In this document: piece by piece, positions 45,141 through 53,930 of the stretch
Layout: the number at the start of each line of letters is the position of its first letter
Numbering within the stretch: the stretch's first letter is position 1
Origin: Fistulifera solaris
Lineage: Eukaryota
Length of the DNA stretch: 64,000 nt
Assembly (NCBI GenBank): GCA_030295235.1
Contig: AP026131.1
Coordinates: forward strand, 62,001 to 126,000
Direction of reading: 5' to 3'
Notes under the pieces: generated by a model
The model's database searches: none
Told to the model about the DNA's origin: nothing
The model's input: the letters and a program-made list of their open reading frames with translations, nothing else
Program-made: the position numbers and the translations under genes

Positions 45141-45810
45141 TATTTATCGTTTATCGTCGGTTCTTTGTTCTTTGAGTTTCGCTGGGATTGGGCAACGCCC
45201 AACTCCAGCGCAAGGGAAAAGAGCGATAAATCTGAATATAATTATGTGAAAATCGTAGATCTCGTTTCCCTTCGTGTCTCTCAGTATTCAGATTTATTAC
45301 ACATATTACTTGTACCGTCTTGTCCGTTGAGAACGGCATGGAATCTTTCTCACCAGTTTTATTCTCCTTTTTATAAGCATTACGATTTCGAAATAATAGA
45401 ACAGAAACTATAAGGGGGGCAAGGATCAAGGATATGCAGTGAAAGCGACGCGGCAACTTGGATCGGGTACGTATTTTTTGTTAACAACATTCAAGATAGA
45501 AGATCGACGTAGCTTTGGAATTCAGCGGTGCATAGTACCTGACACTGTCTACTTCATTATTCTCCAAATAGGATGCCACAATTTCGTTGTTTCGTTCGAT
45601 CTTCCTTTCTTAGAACTGTATCGGAGACTGGATAAAATTAATGAGATGCACAAGATGCAAGGAACGAACCTTGCGATGATTCGTTATTTGGAATGTAAGT
45701 CAATTGAAAAGTCGACAATCGATGAACACGCTCTCAGCAAAAGCAGATTGCTTGCACGAAAAGCAAACTCAGAGTCATATCTTTTGTTTCAACCTCTCCA
45801 CCTTCTCTCG

Positions 45811-46443
45811 CTAGTTCTGATTCATTAATGTATTCGCCGCCTCCGAAAAAGCAGCAACGCCTGTTAGCGTCATCCACGGAGGCGACCTTTCGTGAATCTG
45901 CTCCAATGCCTTCAAGCTCGCGTATGCTATGCCTGTTTTCGGATCCTTATATATTCCTGGCAGTCCGGTTACCGGACAGAATTTGCGCGGAGGCAAGGGG
46001 TGTTGAGTGAACGCCTGGGATTTCAGAAACGCTTGTGCGACACTATGTTGCGGTCTACTGGCTTCCTCCATGAGAATACTGGCTAGCGAACGAGGCAAGA
46101 ATCGTTTTGGTAAGGCAGTGGAGTTGTTTGTGGTACTCTTTCTGCCTCGTTTCTTCGGTTTGCCTCCTCCTTCATGTTCTTCCAGTTCATCGTATTCCTC
46201 TTCCTCATCCTGAACCGCCCCCATATTCGGATCAACTCCCTCCAACGCATCAATCCACAAAGAAACAGCAAGTTGTTCGTCTTCTTCTGAAGTAAGCGTC
46301 GCTTTTCGTGCTTTTTGTCGTCTTTGGGGATCTTTGTGTCGATCAGATCGTCGTTTCCGAGGGGCTTGCAGCGCCGGAGGCAGCGCCGCACCGGCGGTAG
46401 CTTTCATTGCATCGTTCCACGCTTTTCGAGCTGTCGCGGGCAT
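45811..46443 (-). CDS. SWR1/INO80-family chromatin remodeller subunit (YL1-C / degenerate HIT-finger; SWC6- or Ies6-like)
   Basis: PPRKFCPVTGLPGIYKDPKTGIAYASLKALEQI, preceded by WIDALE and LASILMEE. Confidence 0.72.
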   Translation of the reverse strand: MPATARKAWNDAMKATAGAALPPALQAPRKRRSDRHKDPQRRQKARKATLTSEEDEQLAVSLWIDALEGVDPNMGAVQDEEEEYDELEEHEGGGKPKKRGRKSTTNNSTALPKRFLPRSLASILMEEASRPQHSVAQAFLKSQAFTQHPLPPRKFCPVTGLPGIYKDPKTGIAYASLKALEQIHERSPPWMTLTGVAAFSEAANTLMNQN

Positions 46444-46950
46444 ATTCAAATTGCTGCTTTTATATACAGATAAGAGTTAAACAAGGTAGAAACGTTGATA
46501 TCACAAATCAATACTTCGAAGCTCTCTAAGCAACAAGATTGTTGCCGAGTCGCAAGTTGCAACAAACGAAACGAAGGGGCTATTAGACGGAAGGGCGGAA
46601 GGACAACAGAACGTTGTACGTCGCTTCGTTACTCGTGAACAAATAATTCTCCCCCGCTTTCCAGACTGCAACAAAGTGTAGCCTCTTTTTTCACCGCGAC
46701 CAATGAAATAGTTCGCTTTCTCTCAGCGAAGAATAGTATATCGTTTTATGTACCGACTCACGTTCTTCCCAGCGAATCAGGGAAGAGGATTCATTTTTCA
46801 TTCGGGAGTTCGCATTCTGCAATGCGAAACGAGAACGCTTTTGTGAGAATCCTTCGCGCTCCCATTCTTTCCACAAAAACCAAAACATTCCGATCCAATC
46901 GAAAAGCGAAAAAAACAAACCAAACTCAAACAAAAGAAACATTCAACAGA

Positions 46951-49766
46951 ATGACTGATCTTCAAAAACTCGACGAGCTCGTCAAGCGTGTCAATGCGGC
47001 TCAGAAAGTCTTTGCTACGTACTCACAAGAACAAGTCGACCAGATCTTTCGTGCGGCAGCGTTGGCGGCGGCCGACGCTCGCATTCCGTTGGCTACCATG
47101 GCCGGCCGAAGAGTCGGGAATGGGTGTCATTGAAGATAAAGTGATCAAAAACCACTTCAGTTCGGGAGTACATCTACAACAAATACAAGGACGAAAAGGC
47201 GTGTGGAGTTCTCGAAGTGGACGACGAAATGGGCATCATGATCCTTGCGGAGCCCATCGAACGATATGCGGTGTCGTTCGTGCACAAACCCAACGTCTAC
47301 GACTATTTTCAAGGTAAATATCATCATAATCATTTTCAGTGAACAACTTTCTGGTTCAGCCGGCTCACAAACATGATTTCTTCCGGCGCAGGCACTTATT
47401 TGTTTAAAGACTCGCAACGCAATCGTCTTTTCTCCTCATCCACGTACCAAGAAATCTACCGCGTACACTGCAAAATTGGTTTTGGGCCTTGGCCGTGGCT
47501 GCTGGAGCTCCTCCGGATATTATTGGCTGGATTGAAGAGCCTACTTTGGACCTATCGCGAAGCTTTGATGCATCATGACGGCATTGATCTCATCCTTGCG
47601 ACGGGAGGGCCAGCCATGGTCAAGGCGGCCTATTCTTCGGCAAAACCAGCTATCGGAGTGGGAGCTGGTAACACGCCGGTAGTAATTGATGAGACAGCTG
47701 ACGTCAAGCGAGCTGTATCGTCGATTCTCATGTCCAAGACGTTTGATAACGGAGTGGTGTGTGCCTCCGAGCAATCGTGTATTGTCGTGGATAGCATTCT
47801 ACGAACAAGTCAAGGAACGCCGCCAAGTACGGAGGTTATTTTTTTGAGTGCAGAGGAGGCGGACAAAGTACGCTCTTCTCTTTGTCAAGGGTGCCTTGAA
47901 CGCCAAAATTGTCGGTCAATCGGCTCTCAAAATTGCTGATTTGGCTGGAATCACCGTCCCACCTTACACCAAAGTGCTTATTGGTGAGGGCAAGGTCTTG
48001 TCAGATGAAGACGAGTTTGCTCATGAAAAACTCTCTCCGACTCTAGGGTTCTATCGTGCCAGTGATTTCAACGAAGCGGTTGACATGGCTGTTACGGCTG
48101 TCGCTATGGGTGGCGTGGGTGTAAGTTTTGAAAATATGATCTTTTGTTGCTGACTCTCTCTTCATCGTGCCTGACTTTATTCTTCTTCTGTATGCAACAG
48201 CACACGTCATGTCTATACACCGACCAAGATAAGAACGACGACCGCATTCAGTACTTTGCCAAGAAAATGAAGACCGCTCGAATCTTGTTGAACACGCCCA
48301 CCCTCGCACGGGAGGAATCGGCGATTTGTACAACTTTGCACTGGCTCCTTCTTTGACACTGGGTTGCGGTTCATGGGGTGGTAACTCCATCTCAGAAAAT
48401 GTTGGGCCCAAGCACTTGATTAACAAGAAGACGGTAGCCAAGCGTGAAGAAAATATGCTCTGGCACAAACTTCCTCCGTCGATCTACTTTCGTTCGTGGG
48501 GCCATGGCGACTGCCATGGAGGATTTGAAAAGACTTTAAAAGGGCCGCCATTGTTACGGACAAGTTTCTCTACAACAATACTCCACACGTCCATGAGTTG
48601 CACGACTTGCTCAAAGCCCGAGGAATCGAGGCATAAACGTTCTCTGAAGTCCAAGCAGATCCAACTCTGACTACCATTCGAAAAGGAACCGACATGTTGG
48701 AAAACTTTGCTCCCGATCTCATTATCGCCATTGGAGGAGGAAGCCCCATGGATGCCGCCAAAATGATGTGGGTCTTGTATGAGCATCCTGAAGTAGATTT
48801 CAAAGAGTTGTCGCTCCGTTTCATGGATATTCGCAAGCGCATCTTTCATTTCCCAAAAATGGGGACCAAAGCAAAGCTTGTCTGCATCCCAACTACCAGT
48901 GGAACCGGAAGTGAGGTGACACCTTTGCTGTCGTAACAGATGACTCCACTTCCCAAAAATATCCGTTGGCGGATTACGAATTGACGCCATATATGGCGAT
49001 TGTGGATGCTAACTTGATTATGGATATGCCCAAGGGTTTGACGGCTGCTGGAGGCATTGACGCTGTCACCCATTCAATCGAAGCCTATGTCTCTGTGCTC
49101 GCTAACGAATTCTCTGATGGACAGGCTTTACAGGCTTTGAAGTTGTTGAAAGCTTATCTCCAGCGTGCCTACAAGAAAGGTGCCAACGACCCAGTAGCTC
49201 GTGAAAAGGTTCACAACGCAGCGACCGTAGCTGGTATAGCTTTTGCGAATTCGTTCTTGGGAGTTTGTCACTCAATGGCACACAAGCTTGGCGCTGAATT
49301 CCACATTCCCCATGGAATCGCCAATGCTCTCCTCCTGACCAACACTATTCGGCTTCAACGCAACAAACTTGCCCACCAAGCAGACCGCATTTTCGCGAGT
49401 ACGATCAGCCCAAATGCTCTTCGTCGTTATGGCGAGATCGCCATGCACTTGGGCTTTACACAGGAGCACACTGTCGATCGTGTGAACGCGATGTTGGATT
49501 GGCTTGACGAATTAAAGCGCGATTTGGATATTCCGATGTCAATCCAAGAATGGGGAGTCGACGAAACAGAGTTTATGGCAAAGGTTGACCAGCTGGCAGT
49601 GAATGCTTTTGATGATCAGTGCACTGGTGCCAATCCTAGGTATCCTTTGATCAGTGAACTCAGGAGCATCCTCATTGATTCGTATTATGGGGGAGCCCTT
49701 CACGTTGAGGGAGTACGAGAGGACCTATCCGCAAGAATCAGTCCAAGGATTCTTTCACTATCATGA
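46951..49766 (+). CDS. adhE: Bifunctional acetaldehyde-CoA/alcohol dehydrogenase, heavily frameshifted in this assembly
   Basis: QEQVDQIFRAAALAAADARIPLA, ILATGGPAMVKAAYSS, SKTFDNGVVCASEQS, HEKLSP, LTLGCGSWGGNSISENVGPKHL, GGGSPMDAAK, PTTSGTGSEVTP, GVCHSMAHKLG, PHGIANA and AFDDQCTGANPRYP. GT-AG introns at 47314-47391 and 48121-48200. Confidence 0.93.
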
Positions 49767-49985
49767 GCCCGGAAATGGCTCTGAGCACTCCTTTCAGATG
49801 GTAGGATCTACCGGTGAGGCTGAGAAGAAATGAAAGGCTGATCACTCGAACGTCTCTCTTCGATGTAAAAAATGAATGTATAAACTGAAAAATGAATTGT
49901 ATATCCTCCTCTCCCTCTTTGCCTGTTGATAGCAAGCGATCAATTCTCTGTTGCCGGTGCCTCCTCAATTGTTCCAACTCATCAT

Positions 49986-51456
49986 CTATTCAATCTGTTT
50001 CTTTTCGGCGAGAAAACAATAACGACAACGCTCCAAACAAACCGAAACTTCCTGCTAATGCACAATCTGATCCGAACACCGAAGTTGTCCGCCAAATAAG
50101 CCGAGAATAAAGGGGGCAACAATGTATGTCCCATCTCCAGAGGCCCTGGGCAATGCCATAGCTGTTGCTTTCGGCGTCGTCTGGGGCCAACTCTTGCGGC
50201 GTCGCCGTTAAAGCCGGACCTTGTGCTGTTGACCCAAAACTCCATAAGAGTACCACAGCAGAAAAAGCCAACGCTTCATTCGACATGGCCTCGTTGTTGA
50301 AAAGAGCAAACGGAGAGTCGCCATTCAAGGAAAGAGCCCATGGAATCGAAATTAAGCCCGTTGGCGCTAATCACCCCACCCAACACGCACAAGTGGCACG
50401 TGCGCTTATCTTGTCTGTGCAGAAACCACCAACTGGTGCACCAAGTAGTCCGGTCAACCCGGCCGCTGACAACAGAAGACCTGTGCCAGCGGCACCACCA
50501 GGCAAGCATTCTGTAGCCAGTATCGGTATTGACGCCAATTTTCGCAGCAAATCCAAAACTTGCACCGCTTTGACATAGAGCCAAACCCTGCCAGCTACGG
50601 CTCTCCTTTAAGAGCGAAATCCAGTCCCCCCGAATCAGATGTGATAGTCTCCGTTTCCACATCATAACTATTTTCGGTGCTTTCGCGAATTAGCAATCGT
50701 TTCAGGTAAAAACCAATACAGGAGCCAACAAATAGTTGCAGCAGCACTGACGCACAAGAATGACACTCGAGGTCCGTATTCTTCGACTAACAGACCTCCG
50801 ACGGGTGCCCCAATAGCAATACCGAGAGCTGCAACTGCTTGTTGTGCGGCAACAACTTTCCCTCGCTGGCTTTCGACTCGCTGTGCTAAATCGGCCAGCA
50901 TCCCCCTTTCTCCCGCCCGGACCAACTACGACCGACCCCCAGACCAAATCGTGCTAAAATGAGCAGCGGCAGATTGGTAGCACAAGCGGTCCCGAGATCA
51001 GCGACTGCAATGATAGCCATTCCCCAGATCATCGCTGCTTTGCGAGCCTTGTCGGCCTGCTTTCCCGACCAATTGGCCAGAAGCAATAATCCTATTGCAG
51101 GTGTTGAAATTACGATTCCATTTGCCGCTGAGGAAAGGCCAATTTCCTTTCCGTATAGAGGTATACTTGGGATAACAGCTCCTACTCCGAGAAACAGCAC
51201 GAACTGTGAAAGCAAAAGCAGCGCAAGCGGCTTGGCGACACTTTCAGAAGGAAATCCAAACCATTCGGGCTCACGGTTCTCAGAAGGTAGACCTTTCACA
51301 ATAGTGATATGAACATTTGGCTCCACTGCTTTAGGATAGACGCGATGGGAAGGTCTTAGCACGGTGGGGCGGCATAGCGTAAAGGGTTTCACACAGCGAG
51401 ATAGCAACAGAAGGACCCCGCAAATGCAAGAAGTTCTACTCCCTCGCGGCGATCAT
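49986..51456 (-). CDS. Major facilitator superfamily transporter (several indels), possibly with a bipartite presequence
   Basis: FVLFLGVGAVIPSIPLY, GKQADKARK, LILARFGLGVG, GAPVGG and LYWFLPET, spread over minus-strand ORFs 50886, 50702, 50371 and 49990. Confidence 0.8.
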
Positions 51457-51898
51457 CTTTACAATTGTATATATTGTTATCGAGCATTCTGAGGAAAGGA
51501 ATAAGTTAGGGGACTTTGGCTTTGTTTTAAAATGTTTCGTCATTATTTCCTCGATCGTAACGCACACATCGCGTTTTTCGCTTCATTTTTTTCGCCCCCA
51601 GTGCTCGCTTTCGCGTCGCGCGCTTTCGCGGTAAGAATACTTAAGTGTTAAAGACGGCGCGCGCTGATCACTATGGGACCACGACACTATCTATTGATAA
51701 ATATAGTACTTTATGGCTCCTAAGTGACTACTTTTGATTGGAGACAACGAAGCTAACGGACAAACGAACTCATCAAAGCATTCAACTCGAACAAAGCAAC
51801 ATTTTCGTTCTTGTTCTATCGTATTGAAACAAAGAAAACCATTTGCGTCTCTTTTGAAGATAAAAGGTGTATTGTGAGCAAATTAGGTCTATGCAGAC

Positions 51899-53930
51899 AT
51901 GACGGTATCATCGCTGTGGAAAGCGCTCAACTCCACAAACTGTGGAAAGTCGATCGGAGAAAAAGAGCTCTCGACAGGATTGGCGGATCTTCGCGGCGTG
52001 AATCCGTGGAATTACAATGAGCGAGTGCGCTCACAGACACTCGCCATTGACCTTTCCATTTGGATCTGCGAGTCGCTTACTTCTCACGGTCTCAATGAAC
52101 AAAATGTGAATCCGACACTTCATGTCGTGTTCTCGCGAACTGTAAAACTGCTCAGTCTCGGCATCAAGCTCATATTTGTCGTCGAAGGAAAGAGCCGGAT
52201 TCGAACACAATCGGATGAAGATGATCGATTTCGGAAACGAAGAAGCGGAACAGCTTTCTGGAAAGCGTGCAAACAGTGCCAAACAATGCTCGAACAACTG
52301 GGAGTGGTGGTTGTTACGGCCAAGGCGGAAGGGGGAAGCGCTTTGCGCTTTGCTTAGTCAGCGTGGTCTCGTGGATGGTGTCATTTCGAATGACGGCGAC
52401 TGTCTTTTGTTCGGTGCAGAGCGCGTCTATACGAAGTTCTCTCTCGAAAACTTGGCAAACGGATCTATCGTTCGCTACGATTTGGATGATTTGCGATCGT
52501 TCGTCGAGCGCAGTGGATCGTCCGATGACCAGTCTTCCAATGCAGACTTACAGAAAAGCGCGGATATGAAGATCAGTCGAGAAGATTTGATTGTTTTTGC
52601 TCTCTTAACGGGTAGCGACATGGCCGGAGGTGGACTAGAAAACGTGGGGCACAAGAAAGCGCTAAGATTCATTCAGAAATGCAAGCACGACTATCCTCTC
52701 AGCGTAGACAGTGCAGCGCTTGATGAGATGAAATCGTGGGCCCGAGCTGCGAAAGCCGGTACTATCCAATCGCACACTTGCGACGGCGGCGAGCAACAGA
52801 AGCAAGAGGCTTGCTGCTCTCGATGTTGCCATGCTGGAACGAAGCGTAACCACCGAAAGCATGGCTGTGAAATATGTGGGACACAACCGGGAGAGCCGTG
52901 TTATAAATTCAGTGCAGACGACCGCTTTCGGCAAAGTTTACGTAGCAAGGCATTGCAACTCTATCCCAAATTCGATCCCTCGAAAGTCCTCGCAGCTTAT
53001 ACGTCTCCCAATGACAATCAATTGCCAATTCAGTTGGTTTCCTTATTAGGACAGGGAGGTGCAATTAAGATGAAGCCGCCACAATTAAGCGAGTTGATGC
53101 GAATGGACCTGGTCATCAAAGGATTCAATTTGGCGTCAAGTCGAGAATACATTCAGCAAGCTGTAGGAGGTTTACTTTCTCGTTACGAATTGATGGAATC
53201 GGCTCCTGTAGATATGGACAGTGGACCTGTGACGGAGACTCTTGTGACCCACACGAAACGTGAACGACCGGTCCCAAAATCCATTCAGAAATCGCTTACC
53301 CATCAAGGAGCGCCCTGCTACCAGATTCTCTGGCGTGTCAATGGTACTGTAACGGATGAAAGCGGCGAAGGAATCGACGGGTACGAGTACTTGACCATCG
53401 AACCATGCGAAATCGTCGAAAAGCGCTATCCAGACTTGGTTCATCAATTTCGAGAGGAAGAAGTAGAGCGTCTCAAACAGGGAGATAAGGAGAAGCAACG
53501 TCGTCAAAAGTTCCTGGAGGACATTTTATTCGAGACTAAGGTCGATGATGACGCTCAAAACCGAAAACGCAAACTGGCTTGCATCAAAATGCGGGGAGAC
53601 TTTTTCGAGCAAAAAATGCCGACGCGAGATAGCCATGATCACAATATTGACGGGCGCCAAAGCCACGACGTCACTCAATTGCTGCGTTTTGTGAAAAAGC
53701 CAACCGCCCTGTCTTCTTCTCCTTTGACTACATGCGCACAAAAGACAACTTTCAAAACGCAGCAACGCAACCAGTCGTCTCATATACCGTCGTTGAGCCC
53801 TTCGCGAGAACTCTTTTGTAATATGGGTGAACTGTTGGTGCCGTTGACACCCATCATGTCTCAACGGGGCGTTTTTCCTCCGCATCACATTCTCCTTGTC
53901 AAAAACGTGACTGAGCATGACGAGCAGTAG
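51899..53930 (+). CDS. GEN1: XPG/Rad2-family nuclease, GEN1-like
   Basis: MTVSSLW, LAIDLSIWICE, IFVVEG, EGEALCA, ISNDGDCLLFGA, ALLTGSD and GLENVGHKKA. One indel at the G-run near 52331. Confidence 0.8.

What the first reader, a model, noticed from the sequence alone, without database searches (positions are those of the whole stretch)
46951..49766. Intron-bearing, E. coli-like AdhE in a diatom-type genome: probable horizontal acquisition of an ethanol fermentation enzyme
Seen: long stretches are nearly the same as E. coli AdhE as I recall it (IFRAAALAAADARIPLA; GHTSCLYTDQD; KMKTARIL.NTP; ENVGPKHLINKKTVAKR.ENMLWHKLP). Yet the gene has two canonical spliceosomal introns (47314-47391, 48121-48200) and sits among eukaryotic genes, so it is not bacterial contamination. 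It starts directly at the ALDH domain with no presequence, so it is probably cytosolic. Established: AdhE reduces acetyl-CoA to ethanol under anoxia and is patchily distributed in eukaryotes. Inference: gammaproteobacterial-type gene transfer supporting dark anoxic survival, for example in sediments.
Basis: partly seen in the sequence, partly recalled or inferred. Interest (0 to 1): 0.72.

Follow-up and report, generated by a model that had tools for sequence, protein, structure and literature searches.

The report
Diatom AdhE from marine gammaproteobacteria
This diatom has a real, spliced gene for the bacterial ethanol-forming enzyme AdhE, which its ancestors took up from a marine bacterium and which several bottom-dwelling diatoms share; such transfers are known in other protists, so it is a new example of a known kind.

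Summary
The gene is real and runs 46951-49833, not to 49766. It matches Fistulifera solaris GAX23271.1 at 871 of 887 aligned codons. Both introns are skipped in RNA-type contigs, which also show a poly(A) tail. A second, collinear copy lies on contig C10. The protein passes the AdhE cut-off (1392 vs 951 bits) and keeps all catalytic and iron-binding residues. It is 70% identical to E. coli but 79-80% to two Reinekea species. Trees place it in one raphid-diatom clade (Fistulifera, Cylindrotheca, Amphora, Entomoneis/Amphiprora; 100/100) nested among Reinekea/Teredinibacter-type gammaproteobacteria. AU tests reject grouping with E. coli, cyanobacteria or one green-algal lineage. So the transfer is old and probably single. 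The genome also encodes PNO, a PFL-activase fusion, an ADP-forming acetyl-CoA synthetase-type protein and a hydrogenase; PTA and ACK were not found. Cytosolic ethanol/acetate fermentation is inferred, not measured. AdhE transfer into protists is known. The most relevant survey was not available to read. The scan had no earlier diatom AdhE note.

The parts
46883..46950 (+). A-rich 5' untranslated leader (minimum extent)
   Evidence: Contigs of RNA-type runs X3 and X4 both begin at 46883; contigs cannot show a true start
46951..47313 (+). AdhE exon 1 (residues 1-121, start of the acetylating ALDH domain); 4 frameshifts in the assembly
   Evidence: Alignment to P0121; indels at 47164 and 47258 contradicted by contigs of all 4 runs
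47314..47391 (+). Intron 1, 78 nt, GT..AG, phase 0 after K121
   Evidence: Skipped in one contig of X3; chosen by spliced alignment; same position in the C10 copy
47392..48120 (+). AdhE exon 2 (residues 122-364, with catalytic Cys244 and Glu333); 6 frameshifts in the assembly
   Evidence: PF00171 hit; residue mapping to E. coli C246 and E335; X1 contig 47639-47970 has 0 substitutions and 6 gaps
48121..48200 (+). Intron 2, 80 nt, GT..AG
   Evidence: Skipped in contigs of X3 and X4; same position in the C10 copy
48201..49833 (+). AdhE exon 3 (His365, linker, iron-containing ADH domain with D650/H654/H720/H734, C-terminal tail, TGA 49831-49833); 8 frameshifts and 1 stop in the assembly
   Evidence: PF00465 and PF25137 hits; alignment to P0121; residues; end
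49834..49901 (+). 3' untranslated region ending at a poly(A) addition site near 49901
   Evidence: X3 contig with 21 loose A letters behind 49901
45814..46476 (-). Divergent upstream neighbour with a YL1_C domain (INO80/SWR1 subunit type; that label is recalled)
   Evidence: PF08265 E 6.6e-10
50889..51452 (-). Downstream neighbour, 5' piece of an MFS transporter gene
   Evidence: PF07690 E 2e-11
51887..53930 (+). XPG-family nuclease with chromodomain (GEN1 type; label recalled), in two frames in the assembly
   Evidence: PF00752, PF00867, PF18704

Best explanation
[quoted passage not shown] An ancestor of several raphid pennate lineages acquired it once from a marine gammaproteobacterium of the Reinekea/Teredinibacter type; it then gained introns and was kept patchily. 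Shown: gene structure, splicing, family, active-site residues, tree position, partner genes. Inferred: the enzyme is cytosolic, forms spirosome filaments and reduces acetyl-CoA through acetaldehyde to ethanol, oxidising two NADH when respiration stops in dark anoxia. Acetyl-CoA would come from a presequence-less pyruvate:NADP+ oxidoreductase (PNO) or from the PFL-activase fusion. A presequence-less ADP-forming acetyl-CoA synthetase-type enzyme, not PTA-ACK, would give the ATP-yielding acetate branch. Origin and integrity about 0.9; fermentative cytosolic role about 0.7.
For: NF010378 1392 bits, cut-off 951. E. coli C246, E335, H367, D653, H657, H723, H737, D519, F670, I460, F462 and I712 are all kept in P0121 and P0122. 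Splicing and poly(A) tail in X3/X4. Careful LG+G4 tree of 50 rows: diatom clade 100/100; with Reinekea and two unnamed rows 99/99; with the Teredinibacter group 100/98; marine gammaproteobacteria 100/99. The C20 mixture quick tree agrees, SH-aLRT 100, 95, 98, 99. AU tests reject diatoms plus Pycnococcus-type green algae (p 0.0013) and plus E. coli (p 0.0006), plus 3 cyanobacteria (p 3e-44), and gammaproteobacterial rows without diatoms (p 0.006). A phase-2 intron after residue 405 is shared by 5 of 6 metagenome loci examined. GC3 of three clean AdhE stretches is 0.50-0.53 against 0.43-0.57 for 17 long window ORFs. Partner genes.
Against: No enzyme assay, ethanol measurement, localisation or anoxia expression data. 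The RNA runs are labelled 'RNA?' and their culture conditions are not on record. Only 8 of the gene's indels could be read individually, since one search lists 12 of 91 indel rows. The exact donor is not fixed: diatoms plus the Teredinibacter group is not rejected (p 0.28). Reinekea GC3 (0.54 in L010) is close to the diatom's, so the composition match says little. Chlamydomonas, Entamoeba, Giardia, Chromera and cryptophyte AdhE were not in my trees. PFL has an N-terminal extension of unknown target. The gene tree puts Fistulifera with Cylindrotheca (100/100) rather than with Amphora or Entomoneis, and splits Cylindrotheca, which does not obviously follow the species tree. In Thalassiosira pseudonana alanine, not ethanol, is described as central under anoxia (10.64898/2026.07.20.739533, passages).
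Confidence: 0.72

Rival explanations
1. Same origin, different job: the enzyme works mainly in the oxidative direction, turning ethanol or acetaldehyde into cytosolic acetyl-CoA and NADH, or balancing redox in ordinary oxic growth.
For: AdhE is bidirectional (PMC6778083, passages). Expression at ambient oxygen and possible ethanol assimilation are discussed for Polytomella (PMC5125639, passages) and oxic expression for other algae (PMC6732389, passages). Spliced transcripts occur in runs with no stated anoxia.
Against: The genome also holds oxygen-sensitive acetyl-CoA producers (PNO, PFL-activase) and a hydrogenase, which need an NADH sink. Oxic expression does not exclude an anoxic role.
Confidence: 0.15
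2. More than one event inside diatoms: a diatom-to-diatom transfer between the Fistulifera and Cylindrotheca lines, or an early duplication with differential loss, rather than plain descent from one ancestor.
For: Fistulifera (Naviculales) is 87.7% identical to Cylindrotheca fusiformis (genus in Bacillariales) but 81.4-81.5% to Entomoneis/Amphiprora and Amphora; the grouping has 100/100. The window gene lacks the intron at 405 that deeper members share and has its own two.
Against: All members still form one clade with one bacterial sister, so the entry into diatoms looks single. No species tree from control genes was built; the expected topology is recalled.
Confidence: 0.2
3. A decaying pseudogene: the 18 frameshifts and the stop are real.
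For: Both copies in this assembly are broken, 18 and 15 frameshifts, 3 at the same codons, while the window holds 17 ORFs of 300 or more codons.
Against: Intact 905-residue records P0121 and P0122 exist. Contigs differ from the assembly by gaps with almost no substitutions, for example 0 substitutions and 6 gaps in 334 nt, 1 and 9 in 469 nt; the same excess of gaps extends into flanking DNA. All 8 listed indels inside the gene are contradicted by contigs of X1 and X3, 7 of them by all 4 runs.
Confidence: 0.03
4. Not a lateral transfer from a free-living bacterium: inherited from the eukaryote ancestor or from the plastid.
For: An ancestral origin of anaerobic enzymes in eukaryotes is argued in print (PMC6732389 and PMC6856725, passages).
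Against: Nested under three strongly supported gammaproteobacterial branches. 80% identity to Reinekea against 42% to Pycnococcus AdhE. Cyanobacterial and green-algal groupings rejected.
Confidence: 0.04
5. Bacterial contamination or a chimeric assembly.
For: High identity to bacteria that bloom with diatoms (PMC4829426, passages).
Against: Spliced introns and a poly(A) tail; contigs from two studies bridge it to the YL1_C gene; a collinear second copy within 30 kb of matching sequence; orthologues in other diatoms.
Confidence: 0.01

Closest known systems
Fistulifera solaris GAX23271.1 (P0121) and GAX26579.1 (P0122), annotated acetaldehyde dehydrogenase / alcohol dehydrogenase
   Same: Window gene 871 of 887 aligned codons identical to P0121; C10 copy 884 of 889 to P0122. 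The gene is already annotated in public databases.
   Different: The window carries assembly indels that the records lack.
E. coli AdhE (PDB 6tqh, 6ahc; spirosome enzyme, PMC7080775 and PMC6778083, passages)
   Same: Domain order, catalytic triad, iron ligands, F670 pocket, linker and channel loops 561-589 and 758-772.
   Different: 69.8% identical; R488 and Q821 of the inter-helix contact are K and D; spliced nuclear gene; not the sister lineage (p-AU 0.0006).
Reinekea AdhE (R. blandensis WP_040557247.1, R. forsetii ATX78164.1)
   Same: Nearest named bacterial proteins, 78-80% identical; same 99/99 branch.
   Different: Intronless bacterial genes. R. marinisedimentorum carries a Vibrio-type copy instead. 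Teredinibacter-type proteins are not excluded as sister.
Laterally acquired AdhE of Entamoeba, Mastigamoeba, diplomonads, Cryptosporidium, Piromyces and green algae (PMC1484493, section 10 read)
   Same: Same enzyme, patchy spread, bacterial origin by independent transfers.
   Different: That section places green-algal AdhE beside a cyanobacterium and names no diatom or stramenopile; a 2016 survey table lists AdhE for six eukaryote groups without stramenopiles (PMC5125639, passages).
Cytosolic PFO + ADHE + ADP-forming acetyl-CoA synthetase fermentation of Giardia and Entamoeba (PMC6856725, passages)
   Same: The genome encodes the same three activities, each apparently without a presequence.
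   Different: Here the host is a photosynthetic aerobe with full mitochondria, PFO is the NADP-linked PNO fusion, and PFL is also present. Location and flux are untested.

Membership tests
AdhE (NCBIfam NF010378 equivalog) | Score above the curated cut-off over the whole model | tested here: met
   P0121 1392.2 bits, P0122 1387.1, cut-off 951, model 12-869 of 872; tested on the intact records, not on the broken window reading
AdhE (NCBIfam NF010378 equivalog) | N-terminal acetylating ALDH fused to C-terminal Fe-ADH in one chain | tested here: met
   PF00171, PF00465, PF25137 in order along the window; one 905-residue record aligns across it
AdhE (NCBIfam NF010378 equivalog) | ALDH catalytic Cys246, Glu335, His367 (PMC7080775) | tested here: met
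   C244, E333, H365
AdhE (NCBIfam NF010378 equivalog) | ADH iron ligands Asp653, His657, His723, His737 and NAD-selecting Asp519 (numbering recalled) | tested here: met
   D650, H654, H720, H734, D516
AdhE (NCBIfam NF010378 equivalog) | Spirosome interface F670 in the I460/F462/I712 pocket; channel loops | tested here: met
   F667, I458, F460, I709 and both loops kept; filament formation itself not observed
AdhE (NCBIfam NF010378 equivalog) | Acetyl-CoA to ethanol activity | not testable with these tools
   Needs an enzyme assay
Laterally acquired bacterial gene in a eukaryote | Integrated in the host genome and spliced | tested here: met
   Bridging contigs, skipped introns, poly(A); collinear second copy
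Laterally acquired bacterial gene in a eukaryote | Nested within a bacterial clade with support; alternatives rejected | tested here: met
Laterally acquired bacterial gene in a eukaryote | Separate from all other eukaryotic AdhE | tested here: inconclusive
   Only Pycnococcus/Pseudoscourfieldia were available; one search returned no named green-algal protein among its 120 rows
Laterally acquired bacterial gene in a eukaryote | Absent from outgroup diatoms and other stramenopiles | tested here: inconclusive
   The named eukaryotes among the 120 listed hits and the clusters opened are all raphid pennates; no other diatom genome was searched directly
Giardia/Entamoeba-type cytosolic fermentation (PFO, ADHE, ADP-ACS) | All three genes present | tested here: met
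   PNO on C5/C6, CoA_binding_2 + Succ_CoA_lig + ATP-grasp_5 protein on C21/C22; the ADP-ACS name is inferred from the domains
Giardia/Entamoeba-type cytosolic fermentation (PFO, ADHE, ADP-ACS) | Cytosolic location and ethanol plus acetate as end products | not testable with these tools
   Only the lack of an N-terminal extension was read from sequence
Chlamydomonas-type fermentation (organellar ADHE, PTA-ACK) | PTA and ACK genes; targeted ADHE | tested here: not met
   0 matches for PF00871 and PF01515 in G000, controls rang in 9 and 10 of 14 genomes; no presequence. The assembly has errors, so absence is not proven

The most novel reading that the evidence does not exclude
Benthic raphid diatoms run a cytosolic, Giardia-like ethanol and acetate fermentation (PNO or PFL, spirosome-forming AdhE, ADP-forming acetyl-CoA synthetase). 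Its NADH sink came from a Reinekea-type bacterium of the kind that blooms on diatoms. AdhE then marks a sediment-adapted guild that excretes ethanol in dark anoxia, unlike AdhE-less model diatoms, and it may also have moved between diatom lineages.
Probability: 0.3. Interest if true: 0.65.

Novelty: new member of a known kind. Interest (0 to 1): 0.4.

Why it matters
How diatoms survive dark anoxia in sediments is open, and work on the model Thalassiosira pseudonana points to nitrate and alanine routes. An AdhE in raphid pennates gives a testable alternative electron sink in a species used for genetic work. It also adds a well-resolved case, 80% identical to extant bacteria and nested three branches deep, to the debate on whether eukaryotes gained anaerobic enzymes by lateral transfer. 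It is not a new mechanism: the enzyme, its transfer into protists and the F. solaris annotation are all on record. I recall a 2021 survey of microalgal ADHE (van Lis et al., Plant Mol Biol) that reports several gene donors and may already include diatoms; it was not held.

Tried and rejected
Upstream ATG as start of a targeting peptide: rejected, not conserved in the C10 copy. Frameshifts sitting where the two copies differ (polishing cross-talk): not supported, 8 of 18 within 6 nt of a difference against a background of 0.58. A search seeded with a cyanobacterial fragment to fetch green-algal AdhE returned no named eukaryote among 120 rows. A search of shorter proteins added no named diatom among 120 rows. 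The pattern scan of metagenomes gave 63 loci, of which 10 were 73% or more identical to P0121; two sets of three were near-duplicates, leaving 6 distinct loci. The first cyanobacterial AU test wrongly included P0537, a Firmicute-type row; rerun without it. The careful C20 tree did not finish, so only its quick version is cited. FastTree on 135 rows gave the same nesting but has long-branch warnings among distant rows. Contig depths were not used to rank expression. Ten literature searches listed no paper that describes diatom AdhE; this covers open-licence papers only. Two directly relevant papers were not held. The supplement of the diatom HGT preprint 10.1101/2020.01.24.918219, which included F. 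solaris, could not be seen and may list this family; its main text has no hit for 'ethanol'. No structure or complex was predicted, since solved AdhE structures are about 70% identical.

Full report
Observation. The window is G000:C9:62001-126000 of a 51.7 Mb, 62-contig assembly. An adhE gene starts at ATG 46951 on the + strand. Its pieces hit PF00171, PF00465 and PF25137 in order, but the reading jumps between frames. The nearest protein cluster holds two 905-residue Fistulifera solaris records, GAX23271.1 (P0121) and GAX26579.1 (P0122). A frameshift- and intron-aware alignment gives 871 of 887 identical codons to P0121, exactly the two proposed introns, 18 frameshifts and one stop. The true stop codon is 49831-49833.

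Splicing and integration. Four public runs were laid on 45500-52600. X3 skips both introns and X4 the second. X3 ends in 21 A letters at 49901. Both lack cover over 50003-51661, so they behave as RNA although labelled 'RNA?'. X1 and X2 cover all 30 bins and show no intron skipping. Their contigs 46222-47043 and 46315-47183 join the upstream YL1_C gene to the AdhE start. X2 is a wetland metagenome from a different study than X1, X3 and X4.

The breaks are very probably assembly errors. One search lists 12 of 91 indel rows; 8 lie in the gene. All 8 are contradicted by X1 and X3, and 7 by all four runs. Several contigs differ by gaps with almost no substitutions (0 and 6 in 334 nt; 1 and 9 in 469 nt), also outside the gene. 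That is the pattern of uncorrected long reads, not of decay (inference). The remaining indels could not be checked one by one.

Second copy. A match on C10 lies in 30 kb that is collinear with window 32887-63731 at mostly 83-91% identity. It equals P0122 at 884 of 889 codons, has the same two introns and 15 frameshifts. X1 holds two sequence types at similar depth. This fits the allodiploid F. solaris (10.1101/2020.01.24.918219, passages).

Family and residues. P0121 scores 1392 bits on NF010378, cut-off 951. The ALDH triad, the four iron ligands, Asp519 and the F670 pocket are kept; R488 and Q821 are not (triad from PMC7080775 and pocket from PMC6778083, passages; iron-ligand numbering recalled). 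The chain starts at the ALDH fold. An upstream in-frame ATG is not conserved in the second copy, and related diatom proteins also start within a few to 17 residues of the same place. Cytosolic location is therefore inferred.

Relatives. Named orthologues occur in Cylindrotheca fusiformis, C. closterium, a Bacillariaceae MAG, Entomoneis/Amphiprora CCMP467 and Amphora coffeiformis, all in Bacillariophycidae. The nearest bacterial clusters are Reinekea (Gammaproteobacteria, Saccharospirillaceae). Identities to P0121: C. fusiformis 87.7%, Amphora 81.5%, R. blandensis 80.1%, R. forsetii 79.1%, Teredinibacter 74.8%, E. coli 69.8%, Pycnococcus 42.3%.

Trees. From 221 full-length sequences, 129 remained after thinning at 93% identity; 6 Reinekea rows were added for FastTree. 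I chose 50 of these 135 by hand, keeping the diatom clade, its neighbours and four distant rows as outgroup. The careful LG+G4 tree gives the diatom clade 100/100, diatoms plus Reinekea plus two unnamed rows 99/99, the branch adding Teredinibacter-type rows 100/98, and marine gammaproteobacteria 100/99. The C20 quick tree agrees. AU tests on 31- and 36-row quick trees reject diatoms with Pycnococcus/Pseudoscourfieldia (p 0.0013), with E. coli (p 0.0006), with three cyanobacteria (p 3e-44), and gammaproteobacterial rows without diatoms (p 0.006). Diatoms with the Teredinibacter group are not rejected (p 0.28), so the donor genus is not fixed. The green-algal rows sit on a long branch, and Chlamydomonas, Entamoeba and Giardia were not sampled.

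Age. Six distinct metagenome loci 73% or more identical to P0121 were examined. Five carry a GT intron at the same place after residue 405: four by spliced alignment as phase 2, GT..AG, and L118 by its donor site; L129 lacks it. Four of the six were placed directly in a tree and a fifth through P0013; all fall in the diatom clade, on both of its sides. L123 was not placed. A shared intron supports one old entry. The window gene has lost it or never had it, and has two others. Fistulifera groups with Cylindrotheca rather than Amphora or Entomoneis (100/100). From recall this is not the species tree, which leaves room for hidden paralogy or diatom-to-diatom transfer; it was not tested.

Pathway context in G000. 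PFL on C27/C29 is fused in frame to its radical-SAM activase and has an N-terminal extension of unknown target. PFO on C5/C6 is fused to flavodoxin, FAD and NAD-binding domains, a PNO, and starts without an extension. A CoA-binding plus ATP-grasp protein on C21/C22, read as ADP-forming acetyl-CoA synthetase, also lacks one. An [FeFe]-hydrogenase lies on C3/C4. Acetate kinase and phosphotransacetylase gave 0 matches. Earlier scan notes on PNO, the PFL fusion and the hydrogenase agree; I had found these genes before reading them.

Mechanism. Established for the family: acetyl-CoA is reduced to acetaldehyde, channelled inside the spirosome, and reduced to ethanol, with two NADH oxidised (PMC7080775, PMC1484493). 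Inferred here: in dark anoxia AdhE is the NADH sink, and the acetyl-CoA synthetase gives extra ATP from acetate, the set known in the cytosol of Giardia and Entamoeba (PMC6856725, passages). The reverse direction or a role in oxic growth is not excluded.

Literature seen. PMC1484493: passages and section 10; AdhE transfers into protists, no diatom. PMC5125639: passages; stramenopiles not listed for AdhE. PMC3660698, PMC12924338, PMC6732389, PMC6856725, PMC12535992, PMC4829426, PMC7080775, PMC6778083, 10.1101/2020.01.24.918219 and 10.64898/2026.07.20.739533: passages only. Reinekea recurs in North Sea spring algal blooms (PMC4829426). Ten searches listed no paper on diatom AdhE. Van Lis et al. 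2017 and 2021 were not held; the 2021 survey is recalled to report several donors for algal ADHE and may cover diatoms.

Verdict. It is a new member of a known kind. Interest 0.4, because the transfer is unusually clean and the physiological question is testable, but the gene is already annotated and the phenomenon is established.

Noticed in passing
L096:3925-7364 and L097:3914-7363 (G000 C29, C27): Pyruvate formate-lyase fused in frame to its radical-SAM activating enzyme, with an N-terminal extension of unknown target.
   Followed up: partly
L114:7282-9766 and L098:2155-9191 (G000 C5): An NAD(P) transhydrogenase gene (beta then alpha domains) lies directly upstream of, and on the same strand as, the PNO gene; it could convert PNO's NADPH, but co-regulation is untested.
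   Followed up: partly
L113:4714-5952 (G000 C4; partner on C3): [FeFe]-hydrogenase with large- and small-subunit domains; a second PF02906 pair on C42/C43 was not examined.
   Followed up: partly
L112:4095-6419 (G000 C21; partner on C22): CoA-binding plus ATP-grasp protein read as ADP-forming acetyl-CoA synthetase, without presequence; its origin was not examined.
   Followed up: partly
window 46800-50900 and L005:4620-7486: Indel errors are dense in both copies of this region while ORFs elsewhere in the window reach 594-882 codons; the cause of the local failure of correction is unexplained.
   Followed up: partly
L010:3001-5610: Reinekea marinisedimentorum has a Vibrio/Photobacterium-type adhE, unlike other Reinekea, which suggests replacement by transfer among bacteria.
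   Followed up: no
P0156, P0475: Pycnococcus and Pseudoscourfieldia AdhE are very divergent (42% to P0121, branch 2.3) and carry an N-terminal extension of about 60 residues.
   Followed up: no
window 45500-52600, run X2: A wetland metagenome holds both sequence types of this region, some contigs nearly identical to the window, so a very close relative with two subgenomes occurs in the wild.
   Followed up: no
L123, L128, L156: Close relatives of the diatom AdhE in metagenome contigs with about six predicted introns, more than any other member examined; two of the predicted positions are uncertain.
   Followed up: partly
window 51887-53930: XPG-family nuclease with chromodomain is split over two frames near 52350, probably another assembly error.
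   Followed up: no
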